A stretch of 61,006 nucleotides of DNA from Candidatus Microgenomates bacterium (GTDB taxonomy: Bacteria; Patescibacteriota; Microgenomatia; UBA1400; PJMF01). The notes beneath the pieces were generated by a model. That model searched no databases and had not been told where the DNA came from. It saw nothing but the letters and a program-made list of their open reading frames with translations. The stretch's first letter is position 1. Every line of letters begins with the position of its first letter. The stretch lies in contig WFRK01000016.1 of NCBI GenBank assembly GCA_015486535.1, forward strand, positions 1 to 61,006, in the 5' to 3' direction. The position numbers and the translations under genes are program-made. Below are positions 56,001-59,519 of this stretch, piece by piece.

Positions 56001-56418
56001 AGAGAGTAAAATCATCAACAACGACCGTTTTGCCGGCTTTAACTAAAAGACCATACTGGCGAGATTCATTAGCGCCAGTCAAGGTTCCCGTTAATTTCCA
56101 CCAACCTCCCCCTGCGTCAGCATAGGTGGTCGGAATGGTTGAACCGTTATAATAAAGTTGAGCAATACTGGATGTAATTGTTCCTCCCTGATTGCCAGTA
56201 GTATTATCATAAACATAAGCGGAAAAGTTATAAGTTGAGGTATCGCCAACATTAACCGTTTGGTAAATTTTGCCGTCAACAACATTACCTATAACTATCA
56301 AATCGCCGCCGGTCGCTTCGCGACCGGAAGTAGAGGAAAAAGATTGAGAGATGGCTACGGGATCACTGGAACAGCGAAACCCAACATTGAGACCCGTATT
56401 GGTACTAACCCAAAACAA
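52999..56418 (-). CDS. C-terminal part of the DGR target protein: CBM-like jelly-roll plus about 8 fibronectin-III / PAP-N-like repeats
   Basis: The frame opens inside the variable repeat (FWVSTNTGLNVGFRCSSD) with no credible start of its own. Ser/Thr-rich FN3 repeats are present, such as YKVYRSTTS and TTYYYKAKWTDEDGN. See the findings for the +2 frameshift. Confidence 0.8.
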   Translation of the reverse strand: MFWVSTNTGLNVGFRCSSDPVAISQSFSSTSGREATGGDLIVIGNVVDGKIYQTVNVGDTSTYNFSAYVYDNTTGNQGGTITSSIAQLYYNGSTIPTTYADAGGGWWKLTGTLTGANESRQYGLLVKAGKTVVVDDFTLSKSGTYSIYNTTAYSNAQVVTWDSFVETASASGNASVVYQICLDNGSACSYTTGSRWQYYTGGTWTNAISDSTTYANTAAQLTQAAMQALPVTSQKISIKAIMSFGGVDMPAITSLKIGLTTDTTSPTTNASSLTMTKTNGGSSVSDNGWTNGSSPYFSWTAGADNSGGSGLKGYCLYLGTDPNGDPATAKGLLGTSPVSTSGTTCQFIVSSTSIDFATSSYKGSTWLTSSSDPYYLNIKAVDNGGNIFSGSSAQFQFKFDNTVPSNPSGLSAPQGYQANINDFTIYWATSGSASSSDSASGIKGYQYRIGPNGTWYGANHSGNEDCNDLITVGSYTLNSTNDSLSTGENTFYLRTWDNACNVSTTYITGILKYNADAPTTPQNLAVSPSSNTTNSFAFSWEAPATYTGQLSGLSYCYTINSVPSASTCTWTSSASLSADAYATQPGTNTFYVVAKDEAGNVNYSSYASVNFTANTSAPGVPRSMDLADISIKVSSNWKLTVSWETPSDVGAGVSAYKVYRSTTSSASCSSNFSSFTELGSTAGTAYTDTGLNQQTYYYCVKACDSANNCSAVSSTVSGYPDGKYTSAASLSSGPTTSSITTKKATVNWSTSRNSDSKIQYGSSSGSYYDEEPSKSGQTTDHSITLTNLSAGTTYYYKAKWTDEDGNTGTSDEKSFTTNAAPTVKDVTVDSIGLSSAIIKYTTKNASKVKIYYGKTTSFGGAKEVSTSTSETTYTTELTGLDDGAKYYYKINTYDSEGDEYEGTILDFKTLPRPKISKVRIQQVRGAAQPTVLVSWQTNTEISSIITYYPEGKSDKARDEVNVTLTKGLHRMIIRGLFANTPYILIVKGRDKIGNEAVSDRQKFTTATDTRPPLITDLRVEGTAIPQTATTAQESMGQIVVTWNTDEPATAQIEFGEGTGSSYAQRTQQESNLTYNHVVVISNLATSKVYHLRAISKDIAGNDGYSVDTVTITPKATANALNLVIGGLQQAFGFLGELKQ
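56309..56327 (-). promoter_or_regulatory. GC-rich hairpin just 3' of the VR (candidate DGR target-recognition hairpin)
   Basis: The minus strand reads CCGGTCGC-GAA-GCGACCGG, an 8-bp perfect stem. It lies 35 nt past the VR end and has no counterpart after the TR. Confidence 0.6.
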
Positions 56419-57617
56419 GTAGAGAGTGTAAATGCCCCTGCGTAGGAAGTGCTACCCCAACCCCCGCCACGAAGGAACACCCGATTGGAGGAAGCACCAT
56501 TATAAGTGTAAATGCGACCAACGCCCTGATTGGCATTATAGCCACTGTCCAAGGGACGAATAATATCGTAAGACAAATCACCATAATCAGTAATGGCCGT
56601 ATGTTCAATCCAACGCCAACCAGCCGCACCACCATCTGAAGGAAGATTATTCGTTAAAGTATCATCACTGTCTCGCATCACATGCTCCCAAACGTTACCG
56701 GCCAAATCCCAAACAACACTGCCGTTAGAAAGACTCAAAGTACGTACCTGATTACCCACCGATCCCGATTGGCCACTGGCTGTATTGGTTGGACAACCTG
56801 ATGGATTTTCCGTTCCTGGATCACCGTCAGTATAAGCACAACGATAATCACCTGTGTCGGTAGTTGAAGCCGGTCTGGCTTTTGCGGGCGAGTTATCATT
56901 ATGACCAGCAAAAAGATAACCCAAACCAACATTTCCACCACTCCAATTTGTTGCTTGACTTTCAACATTGCGAGCAATTGTCATCCATTCAGGGTTCGTA
57001 ATTAAATGAGCAGTACTACCATTAAGAGTAATTGCAGCACACCTAACCTTAGCATTATCATGACTAATATTAGCGATTGGATAACCGGAAGCAACTGAAG
57101 TCACCTGTCGATTATTAGTTGAAATACAAGGGGTAGTGCTGTCTGAGTAAGTATGATAACCACTGTCAGGACTAGTCAAACCTGTCGTTAAGTCGGAGGT
57201 AGCGACGCATTTTGCCTCGTACTTCATCACTAAAAAGTTGCTGGTGGAATAAGCGGTGTTGCCAGGCACTTCCACCCAACCAGCGGGAGGGATGGCGGCC
57301 ACATTCCATGAACTATTATCGTCGTTGAAAGCAGAATTAGCTAATTTATTAACTCCACTGATTGGATGAGCTCCATTAGTGTCTACCGCAACAAAATTGG
57401 CATCATAGGTATAGTCGCTGGCGGTTGAAACATTAAAAGTCCAAGTCTTACTGCTATCGTTAAGTGCAAATACTTTGGGCAAAATGATTTTGGTAACGGT
57501 TAAGTACGAACCGACTGCAATTCCAGTAAAAACTAAAAACGTAGTCAACAAATTGAACTGAATGCGTGAAAAATGCCAGTGAGGAGCAAAAAAGTAGTCT
57601 TTGAATCGAGATAACAT
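56355..57617 (-). CDS. N-terminal part of the DGR variable protein: signal anchor plus an FGE-sulfatase/C-type-lectin-fold domain carrying the VR
   Basis: TM segment LLTTFLVFTGIAVGSYL. FLVMKYEAK, DLAGNVWEHV and FLRGGGW are FGE-sulfatase/CLec-type motifs common in DGR targets. The last 22 aa are out-of-frame VR sequence. Confidence 0.85.
   Translation of the reverse strand: MLSRFKDYFFAPHWHFSRIQFNLLTTFLVFTGIAVGSYLTVTKIILPKVFALNDSSKTWTFNVSTASDYTYDANFVAVDTNGAHPISGVNKLANSAFNDDNSSWNVAAIPPAGWVEVPGNTAYSTSNFLVMKYEAKCVATSDLTTGLTSPDSGYHTYSDSTTPCISTNNRQVTSVASGYPIANISHDNAKVRCAAITLNGSTAHLITNPEWMTIARNVESQATNWSGGNVGLGYLFAGHNDNSPAKARPASTTDTGDYRCAYTDGDPGTENPSGCPTNTASGQSGSVGNQVRTLSLSNGSVVWDLAGNVWEHVMRDSDDTLTNNLPSDGGAAGWRWIEHTAITDYGDLSYDIIRPLDSGYNANQGVGRIYTYNGASSNRVFLRGGGWGSTSYAGAFTLSTCFGLVPIRVSMLGFAVPVIP
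56363..56483 (-). repeat. DGR variable repeat (VR)
   Basis: 121 nt. Identical to the TR except for 17 substitutions, all at TR adenines, and a 2-nt insertion at 56422-56423. Confidence 0.9.
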
Positions 57618-57725
57618 ACATTAATACAACAAAACTAACAACAATAATAAATTATTGTTTTACTTCTTTCATAATATCTGATTTACTTTATCAACGCAAG
57701 CGATGTGAGTCTGTCTCACCAAAAC

Positions 57726-59021: not shown

Positions 59022-59140
59022 TCACTGGAACAGCGAAACCCAACATTGTTATTCGTATTGGTACTATCCCAATTCAAGTTGAGTGTAAATGCTCCTGTGT
59101 TGGAAGTGTTATTCCAATTCCCGCCACGAAGGAACACTCG
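59022..59140 (-). repeat. DGR template repeat (TR)
   Basis: 119 nt and non-coding in context. In the target frame it reads VFLRGGNWNNTSNTGAFTLNLNWDSTNTNNNVGFRCSSD, which is rich in AAY codons. Confidence 0.9.
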
Positions 59141-59177
59141 CAAACGCTTTTTATGATTTTCCCCGATATTTAGAATA

Positions 59178-59519
59178 TCACATTTTCATCCAACCATTAA
59201 GCATACGGCCTAATTCGTTCAACTTCTTGGAAGTTGATATATATTGTTTAATACTCATTAATTTTAAATCTTTAGTGAGGCGAATGAATATCCTCAGCAT
59301 GTCCAACTCATTAGAAAAATTTGATTGGAGAAGCTGTCGCTCCTTCCCTCGAGATTTATTAGCTTGAATGATTAAAATTAATAGTGAGATACTTAACTCT
59401 TCGATTTTTCTACCCAAAATCAATCGGTGACTTTTAGGAATACGATTAATTATTGGATAGAGCCAAAGAAGCAGCGCATATGTTTTTTTGAAAAGAATAA
59501 ATTTGTTAGGCATCGACAT
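59178..59519 (-). CDS. avd: DGR accessory variability determinant (Avd), four-helix-bundle protein
   Basis: 113 aa, basic and helical. LYPIINRIPKSHR, MLRIFIRL and ELGRMLNGW align with Bordetella bAvd (YLYPIAQSIPRKH, MLRFWLRF, EVGRILGSW). It lies immediately 5' of the TR. Confidence 0.8.
   Translation of the reverse strand: MSMPNKFILFKKTYALLLWLYPIINRIPKSHRLILGRKIEELSISLLILIIQANKSRGKERQLLQSNFSNELDMLRIFIRLTKDLKLMSIKQYISTSKKLNELGRMLNGWMKM

What the first reader, a model, noticed from the sequence alone, without database searches (positions are those of the whole stretch)
56309..59519. Complete diversity-generating retroelement with adenine-only TR/VR divergence
Seen directly: two near-identical segments lie 2.5 kb apart on the minus strand.

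TR (59140->59022): CGAGTGTTCCTTCGTGGCGGGAATTGGAATAACACTTCCAACACAGGAGCATTTACACTCAACTTGAATTGGGATAGTACCAATACGAATAACAATGTTGGGTTTCGCTGTTCCAGTGA

VR (56483->56363): CGGGTGTTCCTTCGTGGCGGGGGTTGGGGTAGCACTTCCTACGCAGGGGCATTTACACTCTCTACTTGTTTTGGGTTAGTACCAATACGGGTCTCAATGTTGGGTTTCGCTGTTCCAGTGA

My hand alignment gives 17 substitutions. Every one falls at an adenine of the TR copy: 10 A>G, 6 A>T and 1 A>C. That is 17 of 34 TR adenines changed and 0 of 85 non-A positions changed.

The last 27 nt are invariant, which looks like an IMH-like 3' end.

In the target frame the TR encodes VFLRGGNWNNTSNTGAFTLNLNWDSTNTNNNVGFRCSSD. The variable positions are AAY codons.

Between the repeats lies an RT with IGNLTSQ and YMDD motifs. 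Just 5' of the TR lies a 113-aa Avd-like ORF.

Established knowledge: adenine-specific TR-to-VR mutagenic retrohoming by an RT/Avd complex defines DGRs (the Bordetella phage BPP-1 paradigm). FGE-sulfatase/C-type-lectin-fold targets are the common scaffold.

Inference: with half the adenines substituted, the element has been active in this lineage.
Basis: partly seen in the sequence, partly recalled or inferred. Interest (0 to 1): 0.85.

Follow-up and report, generated by a model that had tools for sequence, protein, structure and literature searches.

The report
Diversity-generating retroelement with frameshifted internal target
This is a genuine diversity-generating retroelement (a reverse-transcriptase system that rewrites one patch of a protein gene) in the chromosome of a candidate-phyla-radiation bacterium. 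It is a well-formed example of a known kind, caught with a 2-base slip in the rewritten patch that splits its giant surface-protein target gene in two.

Summary

It shifts the frame and splits the target into ORFs of 420 and 1139 aa. Removing it restores one 1538-aa ORF, 70% identical and colinear with an intact 1510-aa orthologue.

So the VR lies inside a giant membrane-anchored protein (residues about 381-420), not at its C-terminus.

All DGR parts are present:
- Avd scores above the NCBIfam cut-off.
- The RT is closest to the 328-aa RT of PDB entry 8ub7, which I take to be Bordetella phage bRT.
- The target domain folds like DGR variable proteins (TaqVP, TvpA, Mtd).
- A 171-nt spacer RNA has strong covariation.
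- A GC-rich hairpin lies 35 nt after the VR, within coding sequence.

An independent assembly carries the same insertion, so it is probably real. VR-disrupting indels at TR adenines occur in about 1 in 8 relatives and are already described.

Verdict: a new member of a known kind, modest interest.

The parts
59178..59519 (-). avd: 113-aa accessory variability determinant (four-helix bundle)
   Evidence: NCBIfam NF033474 DivGenRetAVD scores 97.1 bits against a cut-off of 80. Pfam PF22296 bAvd has E 2.8e-24. The only PDB sequence hit is 4dwl Bbp7, weak at E 0.023.
59156..59164 (-). 5' strand (GGGGAAAAT) of a long-range RNA duplex; it lies between avd and the TR and pairs with 58951-58959 in the spacer
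   Evidence: It appears in the single-sequence fold. In 24 family loci, 6 of the 9 pairs show changes on both sides and 91% of cells are paired. I infer it is the analogue of the BPP-1 avd:Sp 'cPRT Stop' duplex (bioRxiv 10.1101/2023.10.23.563531).
59022..59140 (-). Template repeat (TR): 119 nt, 34 adenines, 10 AAY codons in the target frame
58851..59021 (-). Spacer RNA between the TR and the RT (171 nt). It contains hairpin 59004-58981, candidate primer strand AATCAC 58968-58963 (pairs with the TR 3' end GTGACT 59025-59020), duplex strand ATTTTTTCC 58959-58951, stem-loop 58948-58925, A-rich 58924-58915, hairpin 58906-58873 and a conserved GTAAATGGGT-like box 58873-58863
   Evidence: Fold z-score is -5.55. 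For the consensus structure on 24 loci, 93.8% of cells pair against 38-52% when partners are slid. 28 pairs change on both sides, and 0 of 500 shuffles reach the observed values. The primer duplex is conserved but shows essentially no covariation, so it remains an inference.
57726..58850 (-). DGR reverse transcriptase, 374 aa (IGNLTSQ at 223, YMDD at 255)
   Evidence: Pfam RVT_1 has E 3e-23. The best PDB hit is 8ub7_A, a 328-aa RT, at E 4.8e-49, against 1.5e-17 or worse for group II intron RTs and the entries deposited as 'retron-type' RTs. R75 and I223 align with residues R74 and I181 of that chain; these are the bRT adenine-mutagenesis determinants named in PMC7826257. 25 of the 41 loci found by RT similarity carry A-biased TR/VR pairs, 26 pairs in all.
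56355..57617 (-). Target gene, 5' part (420-aa ORF as it stands): N-terminal hydrophobic anchor, then a C-type-lectin/FGE-type domain; it leaves the true frame inside the VR
   Evidence: The AlphaFold model of the repaired domain has pLDDT 83 and pTM 0.89. Top Foldseek hits are TaqVP 5vf4 (E 4e-8), TvpA 2y3c, FGE and Mtd. The family profile hits 5vf4 at E 3.4e-5. Homologues reach the Pfam FGE-sulfatase threshold, but the window protein does not.
56363..56483 (-). Variable repeat (VR), 121 nt; residues about 381-420 of the repaired 1538-aa protein
56421..56426 (-). CTCTCT run holding the extra dinucleotide (+2 frameshift) relative to TR CTC-AAC
   Evidence: The same insertion is present in the independent assembly L126.
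56309..56327 (-). GC-rich inverted repeat CCGGTCGC-GAA-GCGACCGG, 35 nt after the end of TR/VR homology, inside the coding sequence (SGREATG); candidate target-recognition hairpin/cruciform
   Evidence: 23 of 46 distinct family sequences have a strong hairpin at this place. Synonymous-codon resampling gives 2.1 +/- 1.4 (maximum 7 in 500), and other offsets in the gene give 0-1 of 46. For the window alone, 10 of 5000 resamples reach the observed score. It is comparable to the BPP-1 element, which has a 7-10 bp GC stem 4-34 bp from the VR (PMC3240598).
52999..56418 (-). Target gene, 3' part (1139-codon open frame): Fn3/Ig-like repeats; it continues the true frame of the VR
   Evidence: Pfam fn3 and Pur_ac_phosph_N hits. 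Deleting 2 nt fuses it with the 5' part into a single 1538-aa ORF. That ORF is 70% identical and colinear with the intact 1510-aa ORF of L001.
50179..53002 (-). Context, not part of the DGR: ABC ATPase (52253-53002, start overlaps the target stop) and MacB/FtsX-type permease (50179-52209), syntenic with the target in relatives
   Evidence: The same order is annotated in L042, L045 and L126. In L001 a 252-aa ORF sits in the same position but was not itself scanned.

Best explanation
The region 59519-52999 (minus strand) is a chromosomal diversity-generating retroelement of a Patescibacteria (CPR) bacterium, ordered avd - TR - spacer - RT - target.

How it most likely works:
1. An RNA covering the avd 3' flank, the TR and the 171-nt spacer folds into a conserved structure. 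The structure is shown by covariation.
2. The RT-Avd complex copies the TR into cDNA, misincorporating opposite adenines. This is inferred from the 17/17 A-only pattern and from conservation of the two bRT mutagenesis residues.
3. The cDNA replaces the VR, probably guided by the identical 3' 27 nt and by a GC-rich hairpin 35 nt downstream. This step is inferred by analogy with BPP-1.

The target is a protein of about 1538 aa: a membrane anchor, a C-type-lectin/FGE-type ligand-binding domain whose last 40 residues are the VR, then about 1100 residues of Fn3/Ig-like repeats. The VR and its cis elements therefore lie inside coding sequence.

In this genome the last recorded homing event, or a slip just after it, left an extra CT next to an AAC codon. 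This shifts the frame, truncates the lectin domain and uncouples the 1139-codon distal part. Avd, the TR, the spacer, the RT and the distal frame are all intact, so a further homing event could restore the gene.
For: - A-specific divergence: 17 of 34 adenines against 0 of 85 other bases, p = 1.4e-11.
- Avd is above the curated cut-off.
- The RT is nearest to 8ub7 (taken to be bRT) at E 4.8e-49, has IGxxxSQ and YMDD, and keeps the R74/I181 equivalents.
- 25 of the 41 RT-related loci hold A-biased TR/VR pairs (26 pairs).
- The target domain model matches DGR variable proteins: TaqVP E 4e-8, then TvpA and Mtd.
- Removing 2 nt gives one 1538-aa ORF. It is 70% identical over its full length to the intact 1510-aa ORF of the syntenic locus L001, which has no indel in its VR.
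- The same insertion is in an independent ENA assembly that differs at 9 other positions.
- In relatives sampled without regard to the VR, 6 of 50 loci are frameshifted between the lectin and distal parts. Every indel that could be mapped abuts a TR adenine. This matches Wu et al., who found that 7% of DGRs have TR/VR length differences, mostly next to AAC (PMC5758913).
- Spacer RNA covariation: 93.8% paired against 38-52% for slid controls.
- The hairpin after the VR is enriched in the family: 23 of 46 against 2.1 expected.
- A relative is demonstrably active. L080 and L081 differ at 22 of 918 positions, 21 of them in the VR and all 21 at TR adenines.
Against: - No reads were available, so the insertion could still be a shared consensus error, or the two assemblies could derive from the same reads.
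- The two assemblies differ at 9 sites but not in the VR. This argues against frequent homing in this lineage now.
- The window protein itself does not reach the Pfam FGE-sulfatase threshold (9 bits). Fold assignment rests on a model (TM-score about 0.45 to TaqVP).
- The hairpin has a 3-nt loop rather than the 4-nt GRNA loop of phage DGRs, and it is absent in about half of the relatives.
- The proposed TR:spacer primer duplex is conserved but shows essentially no covariation. It has a C.A mismatch in 9 of 24 loci at one position, and a separate C.A mismatch in the window at another.
- No formal RT phylogeny was built.
Confidence: 0.85

Rival explanations
1. The DGR is real but the 2-nt insertion is an assembly or sequencing artefact of a heterogeneous VR. 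In the cells the target would be one intact 1538-aa gene.
For: The window is a metagenome-derived contig. VRs are known to be hard to assemble, and many homologous proteins in public data end at or inside the VR. The distal frame is fully open for 1139 codons.
Against: The same insertion is in a separately assembled contig with 9 SNPs elsewhere. The site is not a homopolymer. Substitution-only variants cannot give a length change by path switching in an assembly graph (my reasoning). Indels next to TR adenines recur in independent relatives and are documented (PMC5758913).
Confidence: 0.1
2. The element is a recently silenced relic. It diversified the VR in the past, then a frameshift inactivated the target, and homing no longer occurs.
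For: The VR and TR are identical in two assemblies that differ at 9 other sites in 9.65 kb. The target is disrupted.
Against: avd, the TR, the spacer structure and the RT catalytic motifs are all intact. The 1139 distal codons show no further decay, and the 5 SNPs in the target are mostly synonymous (3 of 5). A relative of the same family is active. The two assemblies may be nearly the same population.
Confidence: 0.2
3. The repeats are an ordinary duplicated protein segment or gene-conversion tract, and the RT belongs to a group II intron or a retron nearby.
For: The RT gives partial hits to the group II intron RT/maturase and retron models.
Against: Those hits are far below their cut-offs: 135 against 300 bits, and 53 against 235 bits. 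Rfam finds no intron or retron RNA in the window. The TR is non-coding, lying between avd and the RT. All 17 differences fall at adenines of one copy only. The RT is 30 orders of magnitude closer to the 8ub7 RT, taken to be bRT.
Confidence: 0.01

Closest known systems
Bordetella phage BPP-1 DGR (avd, TR, brt, mtd), the prototype
   Same: Both have Avd plus RT and adenine-only TR-to-VR differences, with AAY codons in the TR so that no stop codon can arise. The RT keeps the IGxxxSQ motif and the R74/I181 equivalents. The spacer downstream of the TR pairs with sequence upstream of the TR, followed by a stem-loop and adenosines. A GC-rich inverted repeat follows the VR. The variable protein has a C-type-lectin fold.
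   Different: This element is chromosomal in a CPR bacterium, not in a phage. Its gene order is avd-TR-RT-target rather than target-avd-TR-RT. The VR is internal to a 1538-aa protein rather than at the C-terminus of a 381-aa tail fibre. The hairpin has a 3-nt loop, lies 35 nt away and is translated. There is no (GC)14-type IMH, and in the window the TR and VR 3' ends show no IMH/IMH* difference. The upstream duplex strand lies after the avd stop rather than inside avd.
DGR variable proteins of the FGE-sulfatase type: Thermus aquaticus TaqVP (5VF4) and Treponema denticola TvpA (2Y3C)
   Same: These are the best structural matches to the modelled target domain (E 4e-8 and 1.8e-4). The VR forms the last strands, ending in a GFRC-like motif.
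   Different: Sequence identity is only about 14-15% and TM-score about 0.3-0.45. In those proteins the VR ends the protein. Here about 1100 residues of Fn3/Ig-like repeats follow it.
DGRs of candidate phyla radiation bacteria, and the internal-VR and indel exceptions catalogued by Wu et al. 2018 (PMC5758913) and Roux et al. 2021 (PMC8144416)
   Same: CPR genomes are a known rich source of divergent DGRs. Internal VRs and frameshifting TR/VR indels next to AAC codons have been recorded.
   Different: In Wu et al., internal VRs were almost all in Ig-type targets; only two C-type-lectin-type cases were noted. Here a large family has a C-type-lectin-type internal VR: at least 50 metagenome loci, plus L001, L042 and L045. 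In such a target a frameshift removes most of the protein instead of a few terminal residues.

Membership tests
Diversity-generating retroelement (DGR) | A TR/VR repeat pair whose differences fall at adenines of the non-coding copy | tested here: met
   17 of 17 substitutions are at TR adenines and 0 of 85 at other bases, p = 1.4e-11. One additional 2-nt insertion is a known non-canonical outcome.
Diversity-generating retroelement (DGR) | An RT of the DGR type ([I/L/V]GxxxSQ in motif 4, YxDD, closest to known DGR RTs) | tested here: met
   IGNLTSQ and YMDD are present. The best solved relative is the 328-aa RT of 8ub7 at E 4.8e-49, against 1.5e-17 or worse for the entries deposited as 'retron-type' RTs and for group II intron RTs. 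That 8ub7 is bRT is my identification, from its length and its R74/I181, not from a paper. RT relatives sit in loci with A-biased TR/VR pairs. The motif rule is from my knowledge of the DGR literature.
Diversity-generating retroelement (DGR) | The RT branches inside the DGR clade in an RT phylogeny | not tested
   No tree was built; only best-hit and context evidence is available.
Diversity-generating retroelement (DGR) | An accessory protein (Avd or HRDC) next to the TR | tested here: met
   NF033474 scores 97.1 bits against a cut-off of 80. PF22296 has E 2.8e-24.
Diversity-generating retroelement (DGR) | The VR lies in a protein-coding gene, in a C-type-lectin or Ig fold that displays the variable residues | tested here: met
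   The model has pLDDT 83 and its top matches are TaqVP, TvpA, FGE and Mtd.
Diversity-generating retroelement (DGR) | Cis elements at the VR 3' end: an IMH distinct from the IMH* of the TR, and a downstream GC-rich hairpin/cruciform | tested here: inconclusive
   The hairpin is present and is enriched in the family: 23 of 46 against 2.1 expected. But the TR and VR are identical over the last 27 nt in the window, with no IMH/IMH* difference. Nine of the 24 aligned family TR regions read C at the fixed position (CAGCGAT); the VR reads T there (CAGTGAT) in the four of these pairs printed (L049, L054, L045, L066). The hairpin loop is 3 nt, not GRNA.
Diversity-generating retroelement (DGR) | A structured TR-spacer RNA with pairing between sequences upstream and downstream of the TR | tested here: met
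   The 9-bp duplex 59164-59156 / 58959-58951 has 6 covarying pairs. For the whole structure, 93.8% of cells pair against 38-52% for slid controls.
Diversity-generating retroelement (DGR) | Ongoing diversification: VR polymorphism confined to TR-adenine positions within or between populations | tested here: inconclusive
   For this element, the two assemblies have the same VR, and reads were not available. For a relative (L080 and L081), 21 of 22 differences are in the VR and all 21 are at TR adenines.
Group II intron | Intron RNA domains around an RT/maturase that reaches the family threshold | tested here: not met
   TIGR04416 scores 135 bits against a cut-off of 300. Rfam finds no group II intron match in the window at gathering thresholds.
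Retron | A retron-type RT with an adjacent msr/msd non-coding RNA | tested here: not met
   NF038233 scores 52.8 bits against a cut-off of 235. There is no retron RNA family match.

The most novel reading that the evidence does not exclude
In this CPR family the VR sits inside the gene for a giant surface protein. Slippage indels made by the DGR itself disrupt the VR by frameshift in 6 of 50 loci, and by an in-frame stop in one more (about 1 in 7 overall). Each switches off the 1100-residue distal part and the end of the lectin domain. The next homing event overwrites the lesion from the intact TR. The DGR would then act as a reversible on/off switch (phase variation) for the surface protein as well as a diversifier. 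The translated hairpin would show how cis elements can be accommodated in coding sequence.
Probability: 0.1. Interest if true: 0.6.

Novelty: new member of a known kind. Interest (0 to 1): 0.3.

Why it matters
It matters only modestly. DGRs are well known and are common in CPR genomes, so finding one is expected.

The locus is useful as a clean, fully parsed example of a rarer layout:
- It has a C-type-lectin-type VR embedded in the middle of a very large Fn3-rich surface protein that sits in an operon-like arrangement with a MacB-type ABC transporter.
- Roux et al. argued that VRs sit at C-termini because the cis elements need to be free of coding constraint. This family shows the hairpin can be maintained inside an ORF, with compensatory changes that alter amino acids.
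- The spacer RNA covariation suggests that the upstream:spacer duplex described for the Bordetella phage element is conserved in these very distant hosts.
- For annotation, the two 'hypothetical proteins' of 420 and 1139 aa should be read as one frameshifted gene.

Tried and rejected
- Exact look-up of the RT protein in public assemblies found nothing. The 420-aa ORF's cluster led to the second assembly instead.
- Single-sequence searches of the target domain found nothing: Pfam and NCBIfam gave no significant hit, and PDB sequences gave none. A family profile and a structure model were needed.
- My first impression, from protein C-termini, was that a third or more of relatives are frameshifted in the VR. 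This was ascertainment bias. A sample drawn by the region downstream of the VR gives 6 of 50. Three of the 24 loci where the TR and VR could both be aligned have such an indel, against 1 gapped pair of 26 in unrelated DGRs. That difference is too small to claim.
- I considered that the in-frame TGA in the VRs of L066 and L051 might be recoded (genetic code 25). I rejected this because it is the only in-frame stop in the target and the RT has none.
- Promoter and terminator scans were at chance level and are not used.
- Searching for the PDB code 8UB7 in papers found nothing. I identify that chain as Bordetella phage bRT from its length (328 aa) and from R74 and I181 matching the residues named in PMC7826257, not from a citation.
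- A second VR in the window was sought with the conserved 3' 26-mer and not found. Remote targets elsewhere in the genome cannot be excluded.

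
Full report
**1. The observation**

On the minus strand, 59140->59022 (119 nt) and 56483->56363 (121 nt) are a direct repeat 2.66 kb apart. A gapped alignment gives 17 substitutions: 10 A>G, 6 A>T and 1 A>C. All 17 fall at adenines of the upstream copy, which has 34 adenines and 85 other bases. Fisher's exact test gives p = 1.4e-11. The 3' 26-mer occurs only at these two places in the 61-kb window.

The downstream copy has an extra CT/TC inside ACACTC[TC]TAC, placeable anywhere in 56426-56421.

**2. Consequence of the insertion**

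The ORF that starts at 57617 reads ...RVFLRGGGWGSTSYAGAFTLS. It then leaves the frame and stops at 56355 (...GFAVPVIP*). The conserved end of the VR, NVGFRCSSD, is in the frame of the next ORF, 56418-52999, which runs for 1139 codons. Deleting two bases gives one ORF of 1538 codons.

That this is the native state is shown by locus L001. It has the same gene order and an uninterrupted 1510-aa ORF. Its VR has no indel relative to its own TR. Its product is 70% identical and colinear with the repaired window protein, straight across the junction.

The protein has three parts:
- an N-terminal hydrophobic segment, seen in the sequence; its role as an anchor is my inference;
- a domain of about 320 residues ending in the VR (residues about 381-420);
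- about 1100 residues with Fn3 and purple-acid-phosphatase-N-type Ig-like repeats.

**3. The parts of the element**

- *Avd.* The 113-aa ORF at 59519-59178 scores 97.1 bits on NF033474 'DGR protein Avd' (cut-off 80) and E 2.8e-24 on Pfam bAvd.
- *RT.* The 374-aa RT at 58850-57726 has IGNLTSQ and YMDD.
  - Its best solved relative is the 328-aa RT of 8ub7 at E 4.8e-49.
  - The entries deposited as 'retron-type' RTs and the group II intron RTs come in at 1.5e-17 or worse.
  - I take 8ub7 to be Bordetella phage bRT. Residues 74 and 181 of that chain are R and I, the two residues reported to promote adenine mutagenesis in bRT (PMC7826257). They align with R75 and I223 here.
  - The group II intron and retron models are far below their cut-offs, and Rfam finds only a tmRNA and two tRNAs in the window.
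  - Of the 41 loci recovered from species-representative genomes by RT similarity, 25 contain A-biased TR/VR pairs, 26 pairs in all.
- *Target domain.* Alone it hits nothing.
  - A profile of 40 homologues hits TaqVP (5vf4) at E 3.4e-5.
  - An AlphaFold model (pLDDT 83, pTM 0.89) matches TaqVP at E 4e-8, then TvpA, formylglycine-generating enzyme and Mtd.
  - 5VF4 is the Thermus aquaticus DGR variable protein (PMC6328139).
- *TR codon design.* In the target frame the TR has 10 AAY codons, 8 of them changed. No codon can become a stop by A-to-N change.

**4. RNA and DNA cis elements**

I aligned the avd-TR-spacer regions of 24 family members. The consensus structure has 93.8% of cells paired, against 38-52% when partners are slid by 1-3 columns. 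It has 28 pairs with changes on both sides, and no shuffle reaches the observed values.

In window coordinates the elements are:
- a 9-bp long-range duplex between GGGGAAAAT (59164-59156, just upstream of the TR) and ATTTTTTCC (58959-58951, in the spacer);
- a stem-loop (58948-58925) followed by an A-rich stretch;
- two further hairpins (59004-58981 and 58906-58873).

This order is what was described for the Bordetella phage DGR RNA. There the spacer pairs with the avd 3' end (the 'cPRT Stop'), followed by a stem-loop and adenosines. Immediately upstream, a spacer segment pairs with the TR 3' end to prime cDNA synthesis (bioRxiv 10.1101/2023.10.23.563531).

A matching candidate primer duplex exists here: TR 3' GTGACT 59025-59020 with AATCAC 58968-58963, two bases before the long-range duplex strand. 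It is conserved rather than covarying, so it stays an inference. One consistency check supports it. In 9 of the 24 aligned TR regions the TR reads CAGCGAT, and in the four of those TR/VR pairs that I printed the VR reads CAGTGAT. This fixed non-A difference lies inside the proposed duplex, that is, 3' of the proposed start of reverse transcription, so it would never be copied into the VR.

On the DNA side, CCGGTCGC-GAA-GCGACCGG (56327-56309) lies 35 nt after the end of TR/VR homology and encodes SGREATG.
- 23 of 46 distinct family sequences have a strong GC-rich hairpin at the same place.
- Resampling codons synonymously gives 2.1 +/- 1.4.
- Other offsets in the gene give 0-1 of 46.
- The stems differ by compensatory changes, for example GGCCGC/GCGGCC against GGTCGC/GCGACC.

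Guo et al. found that a 7-10 bp GC-rich stem with a 4-nt GRNA loop, 4-34 bp after the VR, is needed for homing in BPP-1 (PMC3240598). Here the loop is 3 nt and the element is translated.

**5. Is the frameshift real, and is it unusual?**

A separately assembled ENA contig (L126; sample SAMN12239303, 63.4 kb) covers the locus. It differs from the window at 9 of 9652 positions, none in the TR or VR, and carries the same insertion. So the insertion is very probably in the DNA. I cannot exclude that both assemblies draw on overlapping reads.

To measure how common this is without bias, I fetched 80 metagenome loci using the protein region downstream of the VR.
- Of 50 loci that hold both parts of the gene, 6 have the lectin part and the distal part in different frames. 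One more has an in-frame TGA in the VR.
- Of 24 loci with the TR and VR both present, 3 have 1-2 nt indels and 1 has a 3-nt insertion.
- Every indel abuts TR adenines.
- The syntenic loci L042 (1-nt deletion) and L045 (2-nt insertion) behave the same way, but I had picked them because their proteins stopped in the VR.

This agrees with Wu et al. They reported that 7% of DGRs have TR/VR length differences, 11 of those 25 frameshifting and 74% next to AAC, which they attributed to slippage (PMC5758913). In the window, the A>T change in CTC-AAC creates CTCT, and the extra CT extends it. That fits slippage during or just after reverse transcription (inference).

What is particular here is the cost. 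With an internal VR, a frameshift removes about 1100 residues rather than a few.

**6. Activity**

The A-only pattern shows past homing. For present activity the evidence is mixed.
- For: all machinery is intact and the distal 1139 codons are undamaged.
- Against: the two assemblies share one VR allele.
- A relative is clearly active. L080 and L081 are the same element from two samples. They differ at 22 of 918 positions, 21 in the VR and all 21 at TR adenines.

**7. Host and context**

The window is chromosomal. It carries tmRNA, tRNAs, PNPase, DnaK, FtsK, FtsH, RNase J and SufB. The named relatives of its PNPase and of the target are mostly Patescibacteria (Pacebacteria, Woesebacteria, WWE3, Roizmanbacteria), with a few records labelled otherwise.

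The target stop overlaps the start of an ABC ATPase, which is followed by a MacB/FtsX-type permease. This order is kept in L042, L045 and L126, and L001 has a 252-aa ORF in the same position. The genes upstream of avd are not conserved among relatives.

**8. Comparison and verdict**

The element works like the BPP-1 DGR and passes every membership test I could run. Two items remain open: the IMH/IMH* distinction is inconclusive in this copy, and no formal RT tree was built.

It differs from the prototype in gene order, host, internal VR, translated hairpin and the present frameshift. Internal VRs and frameshifting indels are both on record (PMC5758913). Roux et al. describe C-terminal VRs as near-universal and explain this by the need for non-coding cis elements (PMC8144416). 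This family is a counter-example on a modest scale.

It is a new member of a known kind.

Noticed in passing
window 59691-60952 (minus strand): A two-gene pair lies directly upstream of avd: a 322-aa histidine-kinase-like ATPase (weak HATPase_c_2 hit) and a 98-aa STAS-like DUF4325 protein, overlapping by 4 nt. It is also present in L126 but not upstream of avd in L042 or L045, so it is probably not part of the DGR. Its function is unknown.
   Followed up: partly
window 60962-61005: A perfect 17-nt inverted repeat with a 10-nt loop sits at the very end of the window, upstream of the ATPase gene. Its loop and 3' arm overlap the best promoter-like match in the region (TTGACA...TAACAT). L126 shows that the contig continues beyond it.
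   Followed up: no
L066 VR about 4449-4451; L051 VR about 5893-5895; their TRs about L066 930-932 and L051 2634-2636: In some relatives the TR carries TAA at the codon before RGG of the VR, so a faithful copy would introduce a stop. In L066 and L051 the VR has TGA there. It is the only in-frame stop in the target and the RT has none, so recoding (genetic code 25) looks unlikely. These look like nonsense alleles made by the DGR.
   Followed up: partly
L043 1-4700: This relative's contig holds two avd/RT pairs within 5 kb. One has a TR at 2236-2360 and a VR at 412-535, inside a gene annotated with an AAA_5 ATPase domain, with a 1-nt length difference. It is a second, different DGR target next to the lectin-type one.
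   Followed up: no
L080 5886-6003 versus L081 3709-3826: The same element from two metagenome samples differs at 21 VR positions, all at TR adenines, and at only 1 position in 800 nt of flanks. This is direct evidence of current DGR activity in this family.
   Followed up: yes
L001 (CAZHJA010000014.1): The record is titled 'uncultured Gammaproteobacteria bacterium'. Yet the locus is syntenic with, and 70% identical in its target to, loci whose named relatives are mostly Patescibacteria. The bin label may be wrong.
   Followed up: no
A3 column 199 (nine of the 24 TR regions, e.g. L046, L049, L054, L066, L045): There is a fixed C (TR) against T (VR) difference in CAG[C/T]GAT at the 3' end of the repeat. 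It is an IMH*/IMH-type non-adenine mismatch that the window's own TR lacks.
   Followed up: partly
window 5026-5459 (minus strand): A full-length tmRNA gene is present (Rfam RF00023, 88 bits). ARAGORN listed no tmRNA in its output.
   Followed up: no
window 58229-58339 (RT residues about 181-216): The RT has an insertion of about 36 residues relative to the 8ub7 RT (taken to be bRT), between the two aligned blocks and just before the IGNLTSQ motif. Its significance is unknown.
   Followed up: no
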